Assembly: GCA_964525635.1 (NCBI GenBank)
Contig: CAZGJX010000122.1
Span: forward strand, 1-11,120
Direction: 5' to 3'
Source of the DNA: an uncultured archaeon
GTDB lineage: Archaea > Asgardarchaeota > Lokiarchaeia > Sigyniarchaeales > SOKP01
DNA: 11,120 nucleotides
Under the pieces are notes generated by a model. The model did not search any database, was not told the DNA's origin, and saw nothing but the letters and a program-made list of their open reading frames with translations. Positions within the stretch are counted from its first letter, which is position 1. Every line of letters begins with the position of its first letter. Both the position numbers and the translations under genes were made by a program. This document shows, piece by piece, positions 339 through 11,118 of the stretch.

Positions 339-941
339 GTGAAAGATATGGATTCTTATAGTATATTACCTAATGTAGAAATTAAACCATTAGGAGAAAT
401 ATCAAAAAAATTTTTAGAATTGGGAATTAAGTCATTTAGAGATGCATGTAGTTATGTACATAATAAAGATTATGGTTATAATACAAATTATGACGATAAA
501 ATGATCTTTTTCAAGGAGAATAAAGGGACTTGTACAACTAAACATGCGGTTATAGCAGGTCTAGCAGAAGAGTTAAGTATACCTATCTTTAAATATGTGG
601 GAGTGTTTAAATTTACTGAAGAGATTTCAAATGGGGTTGATGAAATTCTAGAAAAATATAATGTACCATATATACCAATGGTTCACTGTTTTTTAATTTA
701 CAAAGATTATAAATTTGACCTTACAGAGGGAAATAATAATGGAAAAAAGAAAACTATTAATGATTTTATTTATGTAAAAAAGGTAGATCCTTTTATCAGT
801 AGAAAGAATGAATATTTATTATTTAAGAAAGTTTTAGAGGAAATTATTTTACCAAGTAATGAAATGAAAGGAATAAATGAGAGATCCATATTAAAAGCAA
901 GAGAAGAAAGTATTAAGCTATTAAAAAGAATTATTGAATAA
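339..941 (+). CDS. Hypothetical protein with a transglutaminase-like/papain-fold Cys-His-Asp signature
   Basis: 200-aa ORF (GTG start, alternative ATG at 348). Motif KGTCTTKHAVIAGLAEEL places Cys at a helix start, and PMVHCFLIYKDYKFDLT places His then Asp on beta-strands, the order typical of transglutaminase-like cores. The fold call is inferred from motifs only. Confidence 0.6.
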   Translation: MKDMDSYSILPNVEIKPLGEISKKFLELGIKSFRDACSYVHNKDYGYNTNYDDKMIFFKENKGTCTTKHAVIAGLAEELSIPIFKYVGVFKFTEEISNGVDEILEKYNVPYIPMVHCFLIYKDYKFDLTEGNNNGKKKTINDFIYVKKVDPFISRKNEYLLFKKVLEEIILPSNEMKGINERSILKAREESIKLLKRIIE

Positions 942-960
942 TAAATTCTCAGTTAATCCA

Positions 961-2541
961 TTATATTAAACTTTTTCCAACAACACTTTTATGAGGGCTC
1001 TTTCCTATTAGATTTAATAATGTTGGTACGATATCTGTGATTTTACAATAAGATAATTCTTTTTTTGGTATGTCATCAGATCCAGAGATAATTAAAGGAA
1101 TAATAGAACTCTCTCTACTTCCAATATCATGTTTAAATAGATCATTACTCTTCTTTTTTCCATGTTCAATGTTATATACAATGTTTCCATTTGTACTCAA
1201 GATTATATCTGCACTTCTTGGATTTTTAAAATGTCTACAAATAAGATCGGGATATAAAGGATAATCTAAATGATGGGTTGATTCCAACCATTCATCTATT
1301 GTGTGATATTTTCCATCCAACATTTTTAATGCTCTCTCATCTTCATAATATCCAAAGATATCCTTTTGATTGTCATTTTCAGGAATATATCTTGAAGTCA
1401 TATTCTTACCAGAACCCTTATACTCTATAATTCCTTTAAGTATTTTATGATCTTTTCCTAATTTTCTTCTTAAAAATACTTTTCCTTTATTATAATCATT
1501 ATTATCATTATCATTATAGTACATTAAACGAGTTCCATCAATTTTAAACAATTTATTAAGGAGATTTATATTTTTTGGCCCATAGTTTTCTAGTTTAGAT
1601 AATGAGGGATGCGTCCATGAATGATTAAAATTACTATTATTCTTACCTTTAAAATTAAAGAATCCTACACCACCAAATTCAGAAATATTAATATTTCCTT
1701 TAATGTTTTTTCGTGGATGGTAATGATTTAATCCTAAATTTTTGACGATATGATTTAGCTCTCCAACTTTATTAGCCTTATAATTACCATGATCAGAAGT
1801 AATAGCTATTGCTGTTTCATTTAGAAAGCCCATTTTTTCTAATTCATCAATTAATCGTCCTATTACAGAATCTATATGTAAAAGATTTAATTTATACCTT
1901 TTATCATCACTACCAAATTTATGTAATAGAATATCTGGGCTCATAAACCATATCATTGAACATATTGGGGGTTCTTTTAGACTAAAGTATTTTCTTGGGT
2001 GTTTAAAATTATCTAATAATTTATTGATTACAGTATTATTCGCTCGTGCCATGGTCTTTGAAATATTAAGAGAATTATTTATATACAAATAAAATAATAC
2101 CAATTTTAGTTTATTTTCTGGAAAAAAATAATCTGCTCCTCTATTAATGAATTGAGTAATACTTGATTTATTCCCATTATCTATCATTTCAAATAAGGTT
2201 TGACAATTTTTCCCTAAATCTTTATTCATCCGCATGATATCCAACCTATTTGAACCATATGACCTCAGATATGGTGGTGAATAATCTCTACCCATCCAAT
2301 TATAAAGTGGAACACCATGACATAATTCATTTTTAAAATCACCCGTATAAGTCCCTGTAATTATTGAAACTTGTGTAGGATAAGTAATCGAGGGAAAATC
2401 AGTCACACAATTTTTTGAATATATCCCTCCTTCCATCAATCTTTTAAAATTTGGAAGTAATCCTCTCTTAATAAAAGAGAAAAATTGATTTGAACGTATA
2501 TCATCAATTATACATAAGATAATTCTGTTTAATTTATTCAT
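961..2541 (-). CDS. Alkaline phosphatase superfamily protein (type I phosphodiesterase/nucleotide pyrophosphatase-like)
   Basis: 526 aa. Metal-binding and catalytic motifs occur in the expected order: LCIIDD, FPSITYPTQVSIITG (Thr nucleophile), DILLHKFG, AITSDHG, a late His (KHD) and a C-terminal DIVPTLLNLIG...GKSL. No signal peptide is visible. Confidence 0.88.
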   Translation of the reverse strand: MNKLNRIILCIIDDIRSNQFFSFIKRGLLPNFKRLMEGGIYSKNCVTDFPSITYPTQVSIITGTYTGDFKNELCHGVPLYNWMGRDYSPPYLRSYGSNRLDIMRMNKDLGKNCQTLFEMIDNGNKSSITQFINRGADYFFPENKLKLVLFYLYINNSLNISKTMARANNTVINKLLDNFKHPRKYFSLKEPPICSMIWFMSPDILLHKFGSDDKRYKLNLLHIDSVIGRLIDELEKMGFLNETAIAITSDHGNYKANKVGELNHIVKNLGLNHYHPRKNIKGNINISEFGGVGFFNFKGKNNSNFNHSWTHPSLSKLENYGPKNINLLNKLFKIDGTRLMYYNDNDNNDYNKGKVFLRRKLGKDHKILKGIIEYKGSGKNMTSRYIPENDNQKDIFGYYEDERALKMLDGKYHTIDEWLESTHHLDYPLYPDLICRHFKNPRSADIILSTNGNIVYNIEHGKKKSNDLFKHDIGSRESSIIPLIISGSDDIPKKELSYCKITDIVPTLLNLIGKSPHKSVVGKSLI

Positions 2542-2716
2542 ATAAGGAAAGACAAATTTTAATTGTAAAAACTCGTATTAGATTTAGTTTCATATACAAA
2601 ATTAACTTTCGTAAAAAAAAAATAATCTAAATCTTATCAATTTCACTTTGTTACCAGTGTCATTTATATTATGAAGAGTTTTTGTTATAATCATAATTCA
2701 TTAAATTACGTTTGTT

Positions 2717-4120
2717 ATGATTGAAAAGAACAATATTGACCAAGTTGATTCAATAATTGATATACTCAATAATGATAAAAAAAAAATCTCGCGGAATGAA
2801 CGTTTATTTCAAATAGATTTTATGAAAGTAATGTGTATTATTTTTGTTATAGCATCACATGCTGATTATGGATTTCTTTTATTTCCAATATGGAATTTCA
2901 TTCCTCCTGTACAATTATTTATCATTATTATGGGATTTAACCAAGCTTATTCATTTAAAAAACGAAATCTTCATAAATTAAGTGAATTATATTCATATGA
3001 ATATGTAAAGAAAATATTTTGGAGATTCTTATTCCCTCTCATTCTTCTAAATATTATTTGTTTTTTAATGGATTTTATGGTTTTTGAAATAACTTCATAT
3101 CATATTTTTGGGTGGAGTGAAACAGAGCTTGGTTTTATAAGTTGGGGTGGGACAAATCTTGATCCTAATTCATACACTAATGTTAATTTCTATTATCTAT
3201 TATTAGGTGCTCCATTTTTCCCCGGACCTGGTAGTTATTTTATTGTACTTATAATCCAATTCGCACTCATCTTTCCTCTCATTTATAAATTATTTGATAA
3301 AAATCCGATATTAGGATTAATTTCTTGTTATATAATAGAATTATCTTTTCAATTAATAGCAAATTATATTCCCTTTGGTGGGCTCCACTTTCTTTTTTCA
3401 GGATGCGTTTTAAGATTTTTATCTGCTATAGCTTTAGGAGTATGGTTTATATATAATTCTGATTTATTTTCTAAGCATAATTTATTCGTTATACTTCTAA
3501 CTCCCTTAAGCATATTCTTGATGTTATTCACTCATAATCATCTGCTGCATCTATTTCCTGCTTCTTTCTTTAATCCCGATATTTTTAATCCTATGTTTTA
3601 TACTCCTGATAATTATGGTCTAAGATTTTTCAATACTTTTCCTTGGTGGGCAAATACTAATTTATTTATGTATTTCTACCCCGCACTTGTTTTTCTTATT
3701 TTTATGAAAGTTTTACCTTCTAAATTGAATGAAAATAATCCCATTTCTCAAAAAACTGAAAATTTCTTCAAATCATTCTCTAAAATTACATATCACATCC
3801 TTTTAGTACAAACAGTCTTTTTCATGGTATCTATACCTTTATCATCAACTTATTGGGATCGTCTTATGATTCCTGAGGATATATTTGATACTATTGTTGA
3901 ACCAATTAGGGCAGGTATTACTAATGTAAACTTACTAAGCTCTCAAAGGTTTATTTCATATGCAATTGCTAAAACTTTCTTTTATATAGTCATAGTTGCT
4001 ATTGTTATTGCTATTGCTCTATGTTTTTATCTATTTGAATCAGGTTTACGAAAAGGATTTAAAAAAATTGGATTATCTCTAAAGCATATGAAAAAACCTA
4101 AGGAAAAATTCAATCTATAA
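2717..4120 (+). CDS. Acyltransferase family 3 (OafA/AT3-like) integral membrane protein
   Basis: 467 aa with about 10-11 hydrophobic segments. The N-terminal RLFQIDFMKVMCIIFVIASH contains the AT3 R/K-X10-H motif, followed by VQLFIIIMGF, an RFLFP segment, SYFI and a late SKITYHILLVQ, all typical of AT3. Confidence 0.82.
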   Translation: MIEKNNIDQVDSIIDILNNDKKKISRNERLFQIDFMKVMCIIFVIASHADYGFLLFPIWNFIPPVQLFIIIMGFNQAYSFKKRNLHKLSELYSYEYVKKIFWRFLFPLILLNIICFLMDFMVFEITSYHIFGWSETELGFISWGGTNLDPNSYTNVNFYYLLLGAPFFPGPGSYFIVLIIQFALIFPLIYKLFDKNPILGLISCYIIELSFQLIANYIPFGGLHFLFSGCVLRFLSAIALGVWFIYNSDLFSKHNLFVILLTPLSIFLMLFTHNHLLHLFPASFFNPDIFNPMFYTPDNYGLRFFNTFPWWANTNLFMYFYPALVFLIFMKVLPSKLNENNPISQKTENFFKSFSKITYHILLVQTVFFMVSIPLSSTYWDRLMIPEDIFDTIVEPIRAGITNVNLLSSQRFISYAIAKTFFYIVIVAIVIAIALCFYLFESGLRKGFKKIGLSLKHMKKPKEKFNL

Positions 4121-4226
4121 GAAATTATCTTTTTGTAGGATCATTTTAAGAAAAATAATATCTTTATATTTTGAATGTTTAAATCTAATTTCGTGAATAT
4201 GATCCTAAAAAATAATAATTACTTAT

Positions 4227-5339
4227 TTGAATGATAAATTAAATATACCAAGAATGAATGAAAACTCAGTTTCTGAATGGAATGAAAAAGGTGTTATTTA
4301 TGATGATGAAGGTAAACATGATAAAGCGATCAAATGTTTTAAGAATGCACTAAAAATCAACTCAAAAGATATAGACACATGGAATAATCTGGGTATTGCA
4401 TACGATAATAAAAAAGAATATCATAAAGCAATAAACTCTTATAAAAAAATCCTAAAAATAGATCCAAATAATGCAATTGCTTTATATAATTTGGGAAATG
4501 CTTATAATAACAATGAGAAATTGGGAAAAGCTATTGAATGTTATGAAAAAGCATTGAAGATTGACTCTAATTACATATCTGCTTGGAATAATCTAGGTCT
4601 TATTTATAATAATAAATATAACGAATATAATAATGCAATCGATTGTTATGAAAATATAATAAAAATTAATTCAGAGGATTTTAAAGTATGGTTTAATTTG
4701 GGTGTTGCTTATGCTTCCAAATTAGAAAATGTCAAAGCAATTGAATGTTATAAAAAATCAATAGAAATCAATGAGTTCTATTTACCTTCTTGGAATAATC
4801 TTGGTGCAATTTATGATAACTTAGGAAAATACGATAAAGCAATTGATTGTTATAAATATACTATTAAACATAATAAAGATTATACTTCTGCATGGAACAA
4901 TTTAGGAGGAACTTATTCTCATAAAAAAGAATATCATAAAGCCCTTGAGTGTTATAAAAAAGCATTAGAAATAGATCCATATGATATTAAAATATGGTAC
5001 AATATGGGAACTGATTATATAAATATTGAAGAAGATGATAAAGCAATTGAATGGTTTAAAAATGTGTTAAAGATTGACTCAAATTTCATTGATTCATGGC
5101 ATAAAATGGGAATGGCATATCATAATAAAGAAGAATTTACTAGTGAGATTGAATGTTATAAGAAAGCATTAAAAATAGATCCAATTAGGATTGATATTTG
5201 GATTAATTTAGCTAATAGCTATGAACATTTGCAAAATAATAAGAAAGCGATTGAGTGTTATAACAAAGTCATTCAACTAGATCCAGATAATAATATTGCT
5301 AAAGAAAAAGTAAATCATTTGGAGAAAGAAGATCCTTAG
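4227..5339 (+). CDS. Tetratricopeptide repeat (TPR) protein with about 10 tandem repeats and no other domain
   Basis: Ten ~34-aa units of the consensus W-x-N-L-G-x-x-Y...KAIECYxKALxIDP. The track start is TTG, and the in-frame ATG at 4254 is an alternative start. Confidence 0.95.
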   Translation: MNDKLNIPRMNENSVSEWNEKGVIYDDEGKHDKAIKCFKNALKINSKDIDTWNNLGIAYDNKKEYHKAINSYKKILKIDPNNAIALYNLGNAYNNNEKLGKAIECYEKALKIDSNYISAWNNLGLIYNNKYNEYNNAIDCYENIIKINSEDFKVWFNLGVAYASKLENVKAIECYKKSIEINEFYLPSWNNLGAIYDNLGKYDKAIDCYKYTIKHNKDYTSAWNNLGGTYSHKKEYHKALECYKKALEIDPYDIKIWYNMGTDYINIEEDDKAIEWFKNVLKIDSNFIDSWHKMGMAYHNKEEFTSEIECYKKALKIDPIRIDIWINLANSYEHLQNNKKAIECYNKVIQLDPDNNIAKEKVNHLEKEDP

Positions 5340-5778: not shown

Positions 5779-6120
5779 TTGCCGACTAAAGAAGAAATTA
5801 CCGAGTTAGCATATAGGCGTTATAAAAGCGGAGAATCATATGATAAAAGCATATGGTATCTAGCTTATTATACATTAAAAATCAATAAGAATATTAAGAA
5901 TGGAGGATCAATTGAACCATTAGAAACTGATAACCTTATTTTATTATTACATGATAATATTAATGGTATATTAATTGAACCCTCAGAGGAAGAAATTAAA
6001 GAATTGGCAGAAGAGCTCTATCATTATCGGCCTGAAAAAAGTAAATTACATTGGTTCATTGCGGAAAAACTCTTATTATTAGGAGAAATAGAGGTTATAT
6101 TAAATATTAAGAGAACCTAA
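5779..6120 (+). CDS. Small helical protein with two DUF2934-like repeats
   Basis: 113 aa, TTG start. An internal duplication is visible: PTKEEITELAYRRY...WYLAYYTL and PSEEEIKELAEELY...WFIAEKLL. It resembles the DUF2934 pattern (EEIxxxAYxxW/Y...WxxAE). The family call is from recall. Confidence 0.65.
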   Translation: MPTKEEITELAYRRYKSGESYDKSIWYLAYYTLKINKNIKNGGSIEPLETDNLILLLHDNINGILIEPSEEEIKELAEELYHYRPEKSKLHWFIAEKLLLLGEIEVILNIKRT

Positions 6121-6274: not shown

Positions 6275-9200
6275 TTGACCGCTAAAAAAGAATCAAAGAA
6301 AGGAAAGAAAGAAGATAAAGATCAGAGATCATTATTTTCTTTTATTGAAACAAAAAAACCAGAAGAAACTATTCAAAAACCTAAAATACCTGAAGAAAAA
6401 GAAAAAAAAAAAAAAGAAAACGATAAAAAACCTGAAAAATCAAAAGAAATAAAACCTGAGGAAAAAAACACACCATCCATTAAGGATGAAACTAAGATAA
6501 AAAAAATACCTGATAATTTATTTTATAAAGAAAATAAAACACCCTTTGGATTGAAAGAAGGAGATATTAATTTAGAGAAAGTGTTAAGAGAAAGTGTTAC
6601 TTCTAAATATCTCCGATATTTGATTAAAAAAGGAGATATAGCATCAAATATAGAAAAAGGTTTATTACTTGATGTAAATTATGATGGAAGTTTAAATAAA
6701 GCATATTGTAAGATTTACGATTTAGATGCAGATGAGATTAAAATATGGATTGATACAACAGAACATACACCTTATTGTATAACCAAAGCTCCTAAAAAAG
6801 AATTAGAAAACAATGTTAAATTAACTGAATATGAGGGCTTTAAAGGATTTGAAGAAATTAAGAAATTTGACCTTTTAAATGATGAAGAAATTACTATGAC
6901 AAAAGTCTATGGTAGAACACCTACAAATATAGGCGGGGCTGGGTTAAATATTAAAAATATAATAAAGGAAAGTGGTTATAATGCATGGGAAGCGGATATA
7001 CGTTATCATATTAATTACATATTTGATATCGGATTAATTCCTGGAATGATTTATTCAATTAAGAATGGAACCATTAAAAAGATAGATTTCCATTCTAATA
7101 AAGAAGAATATAATAAAATGGCGAAAGAACTCCTCAGTAAATTCAAAGATGACTCAAAAGAGTTAAAGACTTTTACTGAGGAAAATATTGACATTTTTTT
7201 GACACCAATTCCCGATTTAAAAAGATTGGCTCTTGATATTGAGGTGAGTATTGGTCCAAATGATTATAATATTCCAGATCCTATGTTAGCTAAACAAGAA
7301 GTCATTAGTGTATCATTTGTGGCGAATGATGGACTTAAAAAAGTGTATGTCTTAGAGCGTAAAGGATTTTCTTATAAGGGAAATCATAAAAAATTTCCCT
7401 CTGATGCTAAGATTATCTATTTTAAAAGTGAAAAAGATTTGCTTATTGAGACATTTCGTTTAATGTGGGAATATCCAATAATCATCACATTTAATGGTGA
7501 TAATTTTGATTTAAATTATTTATATCACCGAGCTAATAGATTTAAAATTGACCATGATCTGAATCCAATTCATACTAAACCAGGATTTGGTATGTTGGCA
7601 AGAAGAGAATGTGATCTTAGAAAAGGAATACATATTGACATTTTTAACTTTTTCGTAAATAGAAGTATTTCCGGATATGCGTTTGGAGGAGTTTATCAAC
7701 GAAACTCTCTAAATGCAATAAGTAATGCGTTATTGGGTGAGGAAAAATATGCTCATGAGGAAGATATTCATGATATGGAATATGATGTTTTAACTTGGTA
7801 TAATCTAAAAGATTCGATCCTAACTCTGGAACTTACTCAGTTTAATAACAATTTGGTTTGGAATTTGATAATTCTTTTATGTCGAATAACAAAAATGCCC
7901 ATTCATGAAGTAATTAGGCGACAGATCTCTACATGGATTCAAAATATTCTTTATTTTGAACATCGAAGAAAAAATTATTTAATTCCACGAAGATCTGAAA
8001 TATCTGAATTAAAAAAAGGAGGATATTCGAAATCTACTATTGAAGGAAAAAGATTTCAAGGTGCTTATGTAATTACTCCAGTTCCGGGTATACATTTTAA
8101 TGTTGTTGTAATGGATTTTTCTTCACTATATCCTACTATTATAAAAGAATATAATCTTTCTTACGAAACTGTCATATGTCCTCATGATGATTGTATGGAT
8201 AATTTAGTAAAAGGAGTTCCTTATCATATATGTACACATAAAATGGGCATATTTGCATATATTGTAGGTTTTTTTAGAGACATACGTGTAAAATATTTTA
8301 AACCTAAATCAAATGATAAAACTTTATCTAATGAACAAAAAAGCTATTTTAAAACAATCCAACAAGCATTAAAGGTCTTCGTCAATAGCTCCTATGGAGT
8401 ATTTGGCTCACTAAACTTTCCTCTTTATTGTAATCCCGTTGCAGAGAGTACTACAGGAATTGGAAGATATTCTATTAAAAAAACAATAGAAAAAGCTGAA
8501 GATATGAATATTCAAGTACTCTATGGAGACAGTGTTACGGGAGATACCCCCTTATTACTAAAAAAAAATGGTTTAATTCATATTAAAACAATTGATGATT
8601 TATGTTCAGAATGGAATTCATCAAATGGAAAACAATTTGCTACTACTGATTTCGAAGTTTGGAATGAAAAAGGTTTCACAAAAATTAAAAAAATAATTAG
8701 ACATAAAACTTCAAAAAAAATATATCGGATTCTAACTCACACTGGAGTTGTTGATGTAACTGAAGATCATAGCTTAATTGATATTCAAGGAAATGTAATT
8801 AAACCTTCTAATACAAAAGTAGGAACTAAGCTACTCCATGCGTTTCTTAAAAATTTTGAGAAAAAAGAAACTAATAACTTATCTGAAGATGAAGCTTTTA
8901 TTTATGGATTGTTTTATGCAGATGGTTCGGCAGGTAAATATTATGATAAGTGGAGTTATAAATATTCTTGGGCTATTAATAATCAAAATACTGTTCTGTT
9001 ATTAAAAGCAGTTAAAATATTAAATCAACTTGAAAAAAAAAAAGGGTTGAAGTTTAAAATTCTTGATACAATGGAATCATCATCTGTATATAAATTAGTA
9101 CCTACTGGTGGTCTTAAAGAGATAACAGAAAGGTATCATTCCTTATTTTATGATAAAAATGGTTATAAAAAAATACCAAATATGATTATTAATTCACCTT

Positions 9201-10258
9201 TAAGTGTAAGAAAAAGTTTTTTTGAAGGATATTATTCTGGAGATGGAGATAAATGGGGTAAAAAGAAGATGGGAAATACAAAATTATCCAATAAAGGTAA
9301 AATTGGGACCATGGGTTTTTATTATTTATTAAAGTCTTTAGGATATAAAGTAAGTATTAATTCCAGAACAGATAAACTCAATATATTCAGATTAACTGCA
9401 ACTAAATCATATCAAAGAAAGGATACTAATTCAATAAAAAAAATAATATCTCTTGGTAAAACAACAGACTATGTGTATGATCTAGAAACTGAAAATCATC
9501 ATTTTCAAGCAGGCGTTGGTGAATTAATTGTTCATAATACTGATTCTGTCTTTTTATTAAATCCAAACAAAGATCAAATGAAAGAAATCTCTAATTGGAG
9601 CAAAAATGAGCTTGATTTAGATTTAGAAGAAGAAAAAACATATCAATTTTTAGCACTATCAGAAAGAAAGAAAAATTATATTGGTGTGTATAAAGATACT
9701 AAAGGTATAGATATTAAAGGTCTTGTTGCAAAAAAGAAAAATACTGCTAATTTTATAAAAACGATTTTTAATGATATGATTGAGATTTTTAAACATATCA
9801 CAAATATAGAGGAATTTGAAAAGGCTCGGCAAGAAATTATCGCAAATGTTAAAGATAATTTTAAAAAAATAGGAAAACCAAATATATTTTCATTAGAAGA
9901 TTATGCAATTCATATTTCAATACAGAAAAACCTTAATCAATATGATAAAGTAATACCCCAACATGTAAGAGCTACCTTAGAATTGAAGGATTATGAAATA
10001 AATAAAGTAAAAAATGCACCAAATAAAAATAAACTAATCAATAATATTAATAAGAAATATCAGAAGGGATATATCGCAACATTTATAAAATCTAAAGGCA
10101 GTATTGGAGCAAAAGCTATTGAAATAGCAAAAATCCAAGATATAGATATCAAAAAATATAAAGAACTTCTTAAATCCGCTTTAGAACAAGTATTAGATGC
10201 TATAGGGATCTCATGGCAAGAAATAAAAGGAATAAAGAAAATGGATGCTTTTTTTTAG
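6275..10258 (+). CDS. polB1: Family B DNA polymerase, archaeal PolB1 (Dpo1-like), intein-containing precursor (1327 aa; about 991 aa after splicing)
   Basis: Exo I LALDIEV, Exo II TFNGDNFD, Exo III YNLKDS, motif A DFSSLYPTII, motif B QQALKVFVNSSYG, motif C YGD|TDS (split by the intein), KKNYIG and IKGL. The N-terminal segments LLDVNYDG...AYCKIYD...DTTEHTPY and AWEADIRYHINYIFDIGLIPG match the PolB1/Dpo1 pattern rather than PolB3. Confidence 0.93.
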   Translation: MTAKKESKKGKKEDKDQRSLFSFIETKKPEETIQKPKIPEEKEKKKKENDKKPEKSKEIKPEEKNTPSIKDETKIKKIPDNLFYKENKTPFGLKEGDINLEKVLRESVTSKYLRYLIKKGDIASNIEKGLLLDVNYDGSLNKAYCKIYDLDADEIKIWIDTTEHTPYCITKAPKKELENNVKLTEYEGFKGFEEIKKFDLLNDEEITMTKVYGRTPTNIGGAGLNIKNIIKESGYNAWEADIRYHINYIFDIGLIPGMIYSIKNGTIKKIDFHSNKEEYNKMAKELLSKFKDDSKELKTFTEENIDIFLTPIPDLKRLALDIEVSIGPNDYNIPDPMLAKQEVISVSFVANDGLKKVYVLERKGFSYKGNHKKFPSDAKIIYFKSEKDLLIETFRLMWEYPIIITFNGDNFDLNYLYHRANRFKIDHDLNPIHTKPGFGMLARRECDLRKGIHIDIFNFFVNRSISGYAFGGVYQRNSLNAISNALLGEEKYAHEEDIHDMEYDVLTWYNLKDSILTLELTQFNNNLVWNLIILLCRITKMPIHEVIRRQISTWIQNILYFEHRRKNYLIPRRSEISELKKGGYSKSTIEGKRFQGAYVITPVPGIHFNVVVMDFSSLYPTIIKEYNLSYETVICPHDDCMDNLVKGVPYHICTHKMGIFAYIVGFFRDIRVKYFKPKSNDKTLSNEQKSYFKTIQQALKVFVNSSYGVFGSLNFPLYCNPVAESTTGIGRYSIKKTIEKAEDMNIQVLYGDSVTGDTPLLLKKNGLIHIKTIDDLCSEWNSSNGKQFATTDFEVWNEKGFTKIKKIIRHKTSKKIYRILTHTGVVDVTEDHSLIDIQGNVIKPSNTKVGTKLLHAFLKNFEKKETNNLSEDEAFIYGLFYADGSAGKYYDKWSYKYSWAINNQNTVLLLKAVKILNQLEKKKGLKFKILDTMESSSVYKLVPTGGLKEITERYHSLFYDKNGYKKIPNMIINSPLSVRKSFFEGYYSGDGDKWGKKKMGNTKLSNKGKIGTMGFYYLLKSLGYKVSINSRTDKLNIFRLTATKSYQRKDTNSIKKIISLGKTTDYVYDLETENHHFQAGVGELIVHNTDSVFLLNPNKDQMKEISNWSKNELDLDLEEEKTYQFLALSERKKNYIGVYKDTKGIDIKGLVAKKKNTANFIKTIFNDMIEIFKHITNIEEFEKARQEIIANVKDNFKKIGKPNIFSLEDYAIHISIQKNLNQYDKVIPQHVRATLELKDYEINKVKNAPNKNKLINNINKKYQKGYIATFIKSKGSIGAKAIEIAKIQDIDIKKYKELLKSALEQVLDAIGISWQEIKGIKKMDAFF
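8531..9538 (+). mobile_element. Intein with a LAGLIDADG (DOD) homing endonuclease domain, 336 aa (precursor aa 753-1088), at the PolB motif C site
   Basis: Block A SVTGDTP (Ser1), block B DVTEDHSL (TxxH), block C EAFIYGLFYADGS, block E SFFEGYYSGDG, block F DYVYDLET and block G LIVHN followed by a +1 Thr. Excision restores YGDTDS exactly. Confidence 0.97.
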
Positions 10259-10272
10259 TTAATAATCTATTC

Positions 10273-11118
10273 TTAAATAAAGAAATATAATATTCCCATT
10301 ATCCCTCCGCATAATAATGGATTTAGGATATTATCATCAATGTTTATACTTACTAAATCAATAATTAAAAATGTAAATGCACCACTAATAGCTATTAAAA
10401 TTTGTTTTGTAACTTCTAAATCAGAACTAAAAATTAACAAACATAATAGTGAAATTATAAAAGACGCAATAAAACCAGCAAAATAACCAATTACTGTCTT
10501 ATTTGAATTCTTAGGATAATTGTATTTCCCATATTTTATTCCAATTATTGAAGCAGCACCATCTCCAATAGTTCCAATCAATGATGCAGAAGCAAAAATA
10601 CCAAATGGGAGGAAAAATATAGGTGTAAAAGCTAAGATTAAAACAACTGGTTTAGTAAATTCAAATATCTCATTACGCTTTAATGATTTTATTAATAGAT
10701 TAGAAACGTTGTTAGGAAGTAAATGAAAAAACTTTCTTTTCGTAAATATATATGATAATCTCACATAATCTAAAGCAGTGAACATTAATATTCCAGAATA
10801 TCCTGTTGTTATTATTAAAAAGGTTCCAAATTGCTCTCCTGAAATTCCCCAAAAAATATTTGCATTCCATATACCCTCCCAGATATTAACTGCAAAGATC
10901 CATAATATAATAATAATTATAGCAGGGAAAAGATGAAGGACTTTTCTATGAACATCCGTTTTTAATGAATATGACTTCATATTTTTATCAGTATTATTTG
11001 ATTCTTCGAATTTCTTTAAAAAAAATACTAAATTTCTTTTTTCAATAATATTTGGATTTTTTTTAATAATAAAAAAAAATTGGTAAGATAAAATCAAAAA
11101 AATCAATAAAGGAGTAAA
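10273..11118 (-). CDS. CTP-dependent polyprenol/dolichol/phytol kinase-family membrane protein, 5'-truncated by the window edge
   Basis: Motifs RKVLHL, GDGAASIIGIKYG...KTVIG..AG and IDDNILNPL with multiple TM segments. The frame stays open upstream of the TTG at 11106 to the window end (F-T-P-L-L), so the true start probably lies outside. Confidence 0.82.
   Translation of the reverse strand, partial: FTPLLIFLILSYQFFFIIKKNPNIIEKRNLVFFLKKFEESNNTDKNMKSYSLKTDVHRKVLHLFPAIIIIILWIFAVNIWEGIWNANIFWGISGEQFGTFLIITTGYSGILMFTALDYVRLSYIFTKRKFFHLLPNNVSNLLIKSLKRNEIFEFTKPVVLILAFTPIFFLPFGIFASASLIGTIGDGAASIIGIKYGKYNYPKNSNKTVIGYFAGFIASFIISLLCLLIFSSDLEVTKQILIAISGAFTFLIIDLVSINIDDNILNPLLCGGIMGILYFFI

What the first reader, a model, noticed from the sequence alone, without database searches (positions are those of the whole stretch)
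8531..9538. Giant-virus-like homing intein inside an archaeal (probable Asgard) PolB1
Seen: a complete 336-aa intein splits catalytic motif C (YGD|TDS). Established: this is the same insertion site used by the Mimivirus and other NCLDV PolB inteins and by some euryarchaeal PolB inteins. From recall, and not from a search, long stretches look much like the Mimivirus PolB intein rather than Thermococcales or haloarchaeal alleles. These include SVTGDTP, IRHKTxKKIYRxLTHTGxxDVTEDHSL, KYSWAxNNQ, FKILDTMxSSSVYKLVP, YLLKSLGYxVSIN and DYVYDLET..F.AGVGE.IV.N. The host extein is clearly cellular archaeal PolB1. Inference: an intein allele has been exchanged between or is shared by Nucleocytoviricota (or related large DNA viruses) and this archaeal lineage, which would be a trace of virus-Asgard gene flow.
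Basis: partly seen in the sequence, partly recalled or inferred. Interest (0 to 1): 0.88.

Follow-up and report, generated by a model that had tools for sequence, protein, structure and literature searches.

The report
Giant-virus-type intein in Asgard polymerase
A self-splicing, self-spreading genetic parasite in the DNA polymerase of an Asgard archaeon belongs to the family found in giant viruses of eukaryotes and in some tailed viruses linked to Asgard archaea, which shows that one mobile element has crossed between these very different hosts, although the direction is not settled.

Summary
Confirmed: a 336-aa intein with both LAGLIDADG motifs intact (8531-9538) splits YGD|TDS of a Lokiarchaeia PolB1 on a syntenic contig; the three congeners have the empty site. 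It is 49% identical to the Mimivirus intein (BLASTP) but only 23-40% to other archaeal pol-c alleles, and trees separate it from those at 100/100. Six more Asgard copies (Loki, Heimdallarchaeaceae, Kariarchaeaceae) form one clade with it (97/88), scattered over the host tree: one entry, then homing. It is not specially Mimivirus-like: the family radiates star-like over NCLDV-type polymerases, NCLDV topoisomerase II and tailed viruses. The closest non-Asgard copies (56-58%) sit in tailed viruses whose head module also occurs in an Asgard MAG, so an archaeal-virus relay is at least as likely as direct giant-virus transfer. Direction is unresolved (AU p 0.14, 0.39). I found no paper describing this; the scan flagged a similar intein in another genome (e1-5576930). 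Ordinary mechanism, unexpected cross-domain range.

The parts
6275..10258 (+). PolB1 gene (1327-aa precursor; 991 aa after splicing)
   Evidence: extein tree places it with two congeners, 100/100
8531..9538 (+). 336-aa pol-c (site III) intein, virus-type allele
8531..8551 (+). Block A, Ser1 nucleophile
   Evidence: sequence
8756..8776 (+). Block B, TxxH (Thr77, His80)
   Evidence: sequence
8900..8926 (+). First LAGLIDADG motif, acidic residue Asp131 present
   Evidence: helix in the model
9218..9250 (+). Second LAGLIDADG motif, acidic residue Asp238 present
9470..9538 (+). Blocks F and G, ending His335-Asn336
8522..8530 (+). Left half of the homing site (YGD codons)
   Evidence: the 18-bp joined site differs from the Mimivirus site at 3 positions
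9539..9547 (+). Right half of the homing site (TDS codons; Thr+1)
5779..6120 (+). 113-aa gene upstream of polB1, syntenic in Lokiarchaeia (81% to congener G159); ties the contig to the host
10273..11106 (-). 277-aa probable membrane protein gene, syntenic in congeners (68%) and family members

Best explanation
An ordinary bifunctional intein. It should excise itself from PolB1 by the standard Ser1/Asn336/Thr+1 route, restoring YGDTDS, and its LAGLIDADG endonuclease should cut intein-free polB alleles so that repair copies it in (inferred from intact motifs and established intein biology; not assayed). Because YGDTDS is nearly invariant across family-B polymerases, one allele family has spread by stepwise homing over hosts whose polymerases are only 22-31% alike in the core: NCLDV-type viruses, tailed viruses of prokaryotes and Asgard cells. 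It entered Asgard archaea once (shown: one clade) and then moved among them and was lost repeatedly (shown: patchy on the host tree, empty congeners). Most likely it came from the viral pool (inferred, about 0.6), with polymerase-encoding tailed archaeal viruses as the relay, since they replicate inside Asgard cells and giant viruses are not known to (inferred, about 0.5). Horizontal sharing across the domain boundary is about 0.9.
For: Identity of the query to classes of alleles on one alignment: Asgard clade 53-68%, four GGD-type tailed viruses about 56-58%, eukaryotic-virus-type medians 48-50%, other archaeal pol-c 23-40%. Trees: 100/100 split from archaeal alleles; seven Asgard alleles one clade, 97/88 (79%); nested among viral alleles at 92/94 and 89/96, and 0 of 1000 bootstraps join them to the archaeal outgroup. 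Intein more conserved than host: against Heimdallarchaeaceae 56% intein, 42% extein; against Mimivirus 53% intein, 31% core extein. Carriers are scattered on the extein tree (4 changes; monophyly rejected, AU 2.5e-127). Near allele in 2 of 400 phylum genomes while 368 have PolB1. P0008 and P0010 have pS 0.42 in the intein against 0.72 in the extein, which fits later exchange; endonuclease pN 0.10-0.19 against pS 0.43-0.68 among four Loki alleles. Relay: virus G400 (terminase, portal, baseplate) carries a 54% allele, and its head module is syntenic with a contig in Asgard MAG G064 (probable capsid 77%, terminase 60%). A second element family with PolB1-like polymerase carries 51-53% alleles and has relatives in two Asgard MAGs, one with a terminase. 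Viral alleles are abundant and diverse (at least 574 IMG/VR matches); Asgard alleles are rare.
Against: AU tests do not reject Asgard alleles as sister to all viral alleles (p 0.137; p 0.385) nor monophyly of the eukaryotic-virus alleles (p 0.109). The sister group is unstable (GGD viruses 70/82, 13%). The virus-Asgard host link rests on MAG binning and gene-content resemblance, with no CRISPR spacer or integration shown. GGD-virus target sites differ from G000's at 4-6 of 18 bp, more than Mimivirus's 3. Among the five Loki carriers the unrooted intein and extein trees agree, so part of the Loki pattern may be descent with loss. Abundance of viral alleles partly reflects sampling.
Confidence: 0.55

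Rival explanations
1. Direct transfer from a giant virus: viral DNA taken up in sediment served as the template for homing into Asgard polB1 (closest to the first reader's view).
For: Nesting among NCLDV-type alleles at 92/94 and 89/96; 18-bp site only 3 mismatches from Mimivirus, all at third codon positions (Mimivirus site from PMC549080); Asgard plus Mimivirus-group clade not rejected (p 0.101); endonuclease-only profile scores NCLDV-type 245 against GGD 244.
Against: Full-length profile prefers a tailed virus (470 against 438); that clade costs 28 log-likelihood units; giant viruses are not known to enter archaea (own knowledge); no NCLDV-type PolB elsewhere in G000.
Confidence: 0.2
2. Reverse direction: the allele arose in Asgard archaea or their viruses from archaeal pol-c stock and seeded the giant-virus radiation, for example inside a protist that feeds on or hosts prokaryotes.
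For: AU p 0.137, 0.109, 0.385. The next-closest alleles outside the family are archaeal, at 35-40%. Ogata 2005 (PMC549080) expected a mesophilic archaeal intermediate. The Asgard clade spans two classes.
Against: 0 of 1000 bootstraps place Asgard basal; both ML trees have viral alleles on the deepest branches; viral alleles have diversified into four further insertion sites, which suggests longer residence in viruses.
Confidence: 0.2
3. Ancient vertical inheritance from an Asgard ancestor or from the common ancestor of these polymerases, with massive loss.
For: Unrooted five-taxon Loki intein and extein trees agree; intein GC3 (13%) equals the host gene's (12.5%), so it is not a very recent arrival.
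Against: The intein is far more conserved than the catalytic core across hosts; it joins Loki with Heimdallarchaeaceae to the exclusion of Kariarchaeaceae (99/72), whereas exteins join the latter two (100/99); other, unrelated alleles occupy the same site in the same family.
Confidence: 0.04
4. Assembly chimera or mis-binned viral contig.
For: Bacterial MAGs in GTDB do carry this family on contigs with NCLDV-type polymerases, apparently mis-binned. The 5' junction is bridged only in the probable source run among listed contigs.
Against: Archaeal extein, synteny with congeners, typical composition (tetranucleotide rank 90 of 149); six independent Asgard assemblies with the same junctions, three in clearly cellular contexts that were read.
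Confidence: 0.01

Closest known systems
Mimivirus PolB intein (APMV R322, residues 1053-1403; Ogata 2005, PMC549080) and related NCLDV PolB inteins
   Same: Same YGD|TDS site III, Ser start, Asn end, Thr+1, two LAGLIDADG motifs, 49% identity with long near-identical blocks.
   Different: Host is a cellular archaeal PolB1; penultimate His where Mimivirus has Lys; 336 against 351 aa; not its sister in trees. Ogata's best archaeal match was 24%.
Archaeal pol-c alleles (Thermococcales and haloarchaea in the literature; here Thorarchaeota, Nitrososphaera-like and other Asgard alleles)
   Same: Same insertion site and general architecture.
   Different: Only 23-40% identical and separated at 100/100.
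Virus-related inteins of Anaeramoeba (PMC10710043)
   Same: Cellular genes carrying inteins that cluster with Nucleocytoviricota inteins; viruses proposed as vectors; DNA polymerases among the hosts.
   Different: Those are eukaryotes, the kind of host these viruses infect; here the host is an archaeon. Sequence relation to Anaeramoeba alleles not tested.
Asgard tailed viruses Fenrir, Nidhogg (10.1101/2021.07.29.454249) and NMV1 (10.64898/2026.08.12.739948)
   Same: Gene sets of the intein-carrying tailed viruses resemble theirs: PolB, RFC-like clamp loader, ERCC4, NT5C-type HAD, PD-(D/E)XK, TROVE.
   Different: Resemblance only, not a sequence test; no PolB intein is mentioned in those papers.

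Membership tests
Class 1 intein | In-frame insert with Ser/Cys1, block B TxxH, terminal His-Asn and Ser/Thr/Cys+1 | tested here: met
   Ser1, Thr77/His80, His335-Asn336, Thr+1
Class 1 intein | Removal restores the host motif seen in empty orthologues | tested here: met
   26 relatives read YGDTDS at this place, including all three congeners
Class 1 intein | Protein splicing occurs | not testable with these tools
   Inferred from motifs and from the catalytic site it interrupts
LAGLIDADG homing intein | Two LAGLIDADG helices with acidic residues and the endonuclease fold | tested here: met
   Asp131, Asp238; Pfam PF14528; Foldseek to TliVMA intein, PI-PfuI, I-DmoI
LAGLIDADG homing intein | Cleaves the empty allele | not testable with these tools
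   Indirect only: pN far below pS in the endonuclease
pol-c (site III) allele | Insertion at YGD|TDS of a family-B polymerase | tested here: met
NCLDV-type pol-c allele family | Groups with NCLDV PolB inteins to the exclusion of other archaeal alleles | tested here: met
   100/100 in two IQ-TREE runs, 99 in FastTree
NCLDV-type pol-c allele family | Derived from within the viral alleles (virus as donor) | tested here: inconclusive
   Nested in ML trees (92/94, 89/96) but AU p 0.137 and 0.385
Mimiviridae-specific allele | Sister to Mimivirus-group inteins | tested here: inconclusive
   Not in either ML tree; AU p 0.101
Ordinary archaeal pol-c allele | Best hits and tree position among cellular archaeal alleles | tested here: not met
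   Thermococcales and haloarchaeal alleles were not in the trees
Lokiarchaeia PolB1 host | Extein and neighbours group with Asgard/Lokiarchaeia | tested here: met
   Same family as Promethearchaeota YT5_013; a same-class genome groups with Helarchaeota; synteny. The class name is inferred.

The most novel reading that the evidence does not exclude
One still-mobile homing intein has been relayed between giant viruses of eukaryotes and Asgard archaea by tailed Asgard viruses, well after these polymerases diverged: a traceable route of gene flow between the eukaryotic and archaeal virospheres, with the Asgard alleles being the mesophilic archaeal link that Ogata et al. predicted for the Mimivirus intein.
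Probability: 0.4. Interest if true: 0.82.

Novelty: new member of a known kind. Interest (0 to 1): 0.68.

Why it matters
In 2005 the Mimivirus intein's best archaeal relative was 24% identical, direct homing was judged implausible, and a mesophilic archaeal or viral chain of intermediates was postulated (PMC549080). This allele is 49% identical, lies in a salt-marsh Asgard archaeon, has a target site three silent changes from the Mimivirus one, and has close relatives in tailed viruses tied to Asgard MAGs. That makes the 'viruses as intein reservoir across domains' idea testable with one endonuclease and a panel of sites. It also gives a marker of contact between Asgard archaea and eukaryotic-virus DNA that appears younger than the polymerases themselves (inference), and warns that unremoved inteins can distort PolB trees. 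The biochemistry is ordinary.

Tried and rejected
Single-sequence scan of GTDB contigs found nothing; the alignment scan found one archaeon and 13 bacterial-MAG contigs, of which the seven whose polymerases could be parsed and scored well are NCLDV-type and one scored weakly, read as mis-binning. The metagenome scan added no further cellular archaeal allele among its best 80. Isolated phages: one 29% match only. GGD-type polymerase not found in 400 Asgard genomes or in G064. A crude CRISPR search of G000 gave three doubtful arrays and no spacer match. Composition gives no sign of recent arrival. No RNA holder listed. The TnpB shared by G400 and G064 (54% aa) is too weak to fix a host. Promoter scan at chance level. 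Five AU-type tests on the intein trees failed to resolve direction or sister. Literature searches for intein with Asgard, Lokiarchaea or Mimivirus found no description; subscription papers are not covered. My viral class labels come from best extein match to a few references and are rough; I did not assign viral orders.
Full report
Observation. The window is the whole contig C122 of a 4.45-Mb MAG (100% complete, 3% contamination). ORF 6275-10258 encodes a 1327-aa family-B polymerase that passes the NCBIfam cut-off for archaeal DNA polymerase I. Bases 8531-9538 are an in-frame 336-aa insert between YGD and TDS with Ser1, a TxxH block B, two LAGLIDADG motifs retaining Asp131 and Asp238, and His-Asn before Thr+1. 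The model (pLDDT 90) has the Hint plus LAGLIDADG fold and its best viral-library match is a phycodnavirus PolB intein, TM 0.90.

Host and assembly. The extein groups with two congeners at 100/100; genome G179 of the same family is Promethearchaeota isolate YT5_013, and a same-class genome groups with a Helarchaeota polymerase, so the host is inferred to be Lokiarchaeia. Flanking genes are syntenic across the family; GC and tetranucleotide profile are typical of the bin. The DNA occurs in many salt-marsh runs; one contig covers everything, another run bridges the 3' junction. In the probable source run a more divergent 906-nt contig skips 1261 window bases with 253 of its own between, a difference of exactly 1008: an intein-free relative lives in the same sample (my arithmetic).

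Relatives. The best hits are six Asgard PolB1 alleles: 67-68% (three), 58%, 55% (Heimdallarchaeaceae) and 51% (Kariarchaeaceae, partial gene), with cellular neighbours such as ribosomal S24e, eIF2, RadA, ubiquitin and Snf7. Then comes a broad band at about 45-58%: NCLDV-type polymerases including Mimivirus (49%), long polymerases of unclassified large viruses, NCLDV topoisomerase II at two sites, two further PolB sites, a few polymerases with a Pol-delta-type zinc finger, and two groups of prokaryotic elements. Other archaeal pol-c alleles, including two unrelated ones at the same site in Asgard genomes, are 23-40%. None of the 150 best of 1.84 billion representatives has a cellular archaeal extein. 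Only 2 of 400 phylum genomes hold the near allele while 368 hold the PolB1 segment; all three congeners are empty.

Trees. FastTree on 247 inteins and IQ-TREE (LG+C20) on 78 and 58 rows all separate the query plus viral alleles from other archaeal alleles (99; 100/100; 100/100). The seven Asgard alleles are one clade (81; 79%; 97/88). They sit inside a group with Mimivirus-like, topoisomerase and prokaryotic-virus alleles (92/94; 89/96), but the radiation is star-like: the sister is the GGD tailed viruses in one tree (70/82) and unresolved in the other, and AU tests reject neither Asgard-basal (p 0.137, 0.385), eukaryotic-virus monophyly (0.109) nor Asgard plus Mimivirus group (0.101). Sharing is therefore shown; direction and donor are not.

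Horizontal, not ancient. Against Heimdallarchaeaceae the intein is 56% and the extein 42% identical; against Mimivirus 53% and 31% (core); against GGD viruses 56-58% and 22-25%. Within Loki the two are similar (68% and 71%). Loki carriers fall in four places on the extein tree and their monophyly is rejected. Two carriers show lower synonymous divergence in the intein than the extein (0.42, 0.72), and the endonuclease shows pN far below pS in four Loki alleles including this one; P0018 and P0010 have altered second motifs, as expected of the invasion-decay-loss cycle. The unrooted Loki intein and extein trees agree, so descent with loss explains part of the pattern, and GC3 matches the host, so the entry is not very recent.

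A possible relay. Four alleles lie in polymerases with a GGD|TDS site on gene-dense contigs. One, G400, is a 65.8-kb tailed virus with terminase, portal, baseplate and probable capsid genes; its head module is syntenic with contig C86 of Asgard MAG G064 (probable capsid 77%, portal 57%, terminase 60%). Their gene set resembles the Lokiarchaeal viruses Fenrir and NMV1 as described. A GGD allele is the best match to an Asgard profile (470 against 438 bits). A second element family has divergent PolB1-like polymerases with 51-53% alleles and relatives in two Asgard MAGs, one carrying a terminase. Both host links rest on binning and resemblance.

Mechanism and comparison. Splicing and homing are inferred from intact motifs and established intein biology. 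The near-invariant YGDTDS codons give a shared target: the joined 18-bp site differs from Mimivirus's at 3 positions, against 5-7 for the archaea that Ogata et al. compared when they called direct homing implausible and proposed a virus-mediated chain with unknown mesophilic archaea (PMC549080). Virus-related inteins in cellular genes are known for eukaryotes (PMC10710043, PMC5784728). I found no report for Asgard archaea.

Verdict. Observation confirmed; interpretation partly supported. A new member of the NCLDV-type pol-c allele family, ordinary in mechanism, with an unexpected range over Asgard cells, probable archaeal viruses and giant viruses. Interest 0.68.

Noticed in passing
L004-L024, L027-L030, L033, L035 (IMG/VR); P0006, P0027: The same intein family sits at two acidic motifs of NCLDV topoisomerase II (QD|TDG-like and EGD|SA) and forms its own clade (100/98): site jumps to motifs that mimic YGD|TDS.
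   Followed up: partly
P0003, P0005, P0007, P0013, P0016 and others: One NCLDV-type group carries the family at a second PolB site (SAN|SMYG) and a third site two residues after pol-c (TD|S); both paralogues branch inside that group's pol-c alleles.
   Followed up: partly
L026/G400, L071, L072, L075; L437 (G064:C86): A group of tailed viruses with GGDTDS polymerases (split in two of them), linked to an Asgard MAG by a 77%-identical probable capsid protein; may belong with Fenrir/NMV1.
   Followed up: partly
L282, L280 (= G336:C161), L434 (G325:C262): Virus-like elements with a divergent PolB1 next to a conserved 1180-aa gene, in Asgard MAGs; they carry either the virus-type or the archaeal-type pol-c intein, so both alleles circulate in one element family.
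   Followed up: partly
L043, L045, L046, L047; L051, L057; L039, L040: At least three other, unrelated intein alleles (381-394, 439 and 323 aa) occupy the same PolB1 site in Asgard genomes.
   Followed up: partly
P0060, P0082: Polymerases with a Pol-delta-type C4 zinc finger carry this intein family; they may be eukaryotic nuclear genes.
   Followed up: no
L077-L079, L083-L086: GTDB bacterial MAGs contain contigs with NCLDV-type PolB, probably mis-binned giant-virus DNA.
   Followed up: partly
window 8291-9720, run X1: A co-occurring relative (about 85% identical) has the intein-free allele at higher depth (15.6 against 8.8): a potential homing target in the same sample.
   Followed up: partly
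G000 C1:78682-80154, C119:1789-4683, C123: Other intein-bearing genes in the genome; none is close to this allele.
   Followed up: no
window 6275-6640: PolB1 begins with a Lys/Glu-rich low-complexity extension of about 110 aa that is absent from the family profile.
   Followed up: no
window 339-5339: Upstream genes: 200-aa unknown, alkaline-phosphatase-superfamily protein (syntenic in the family), acyltransferase-3, TPR protein.
   Followed up: no
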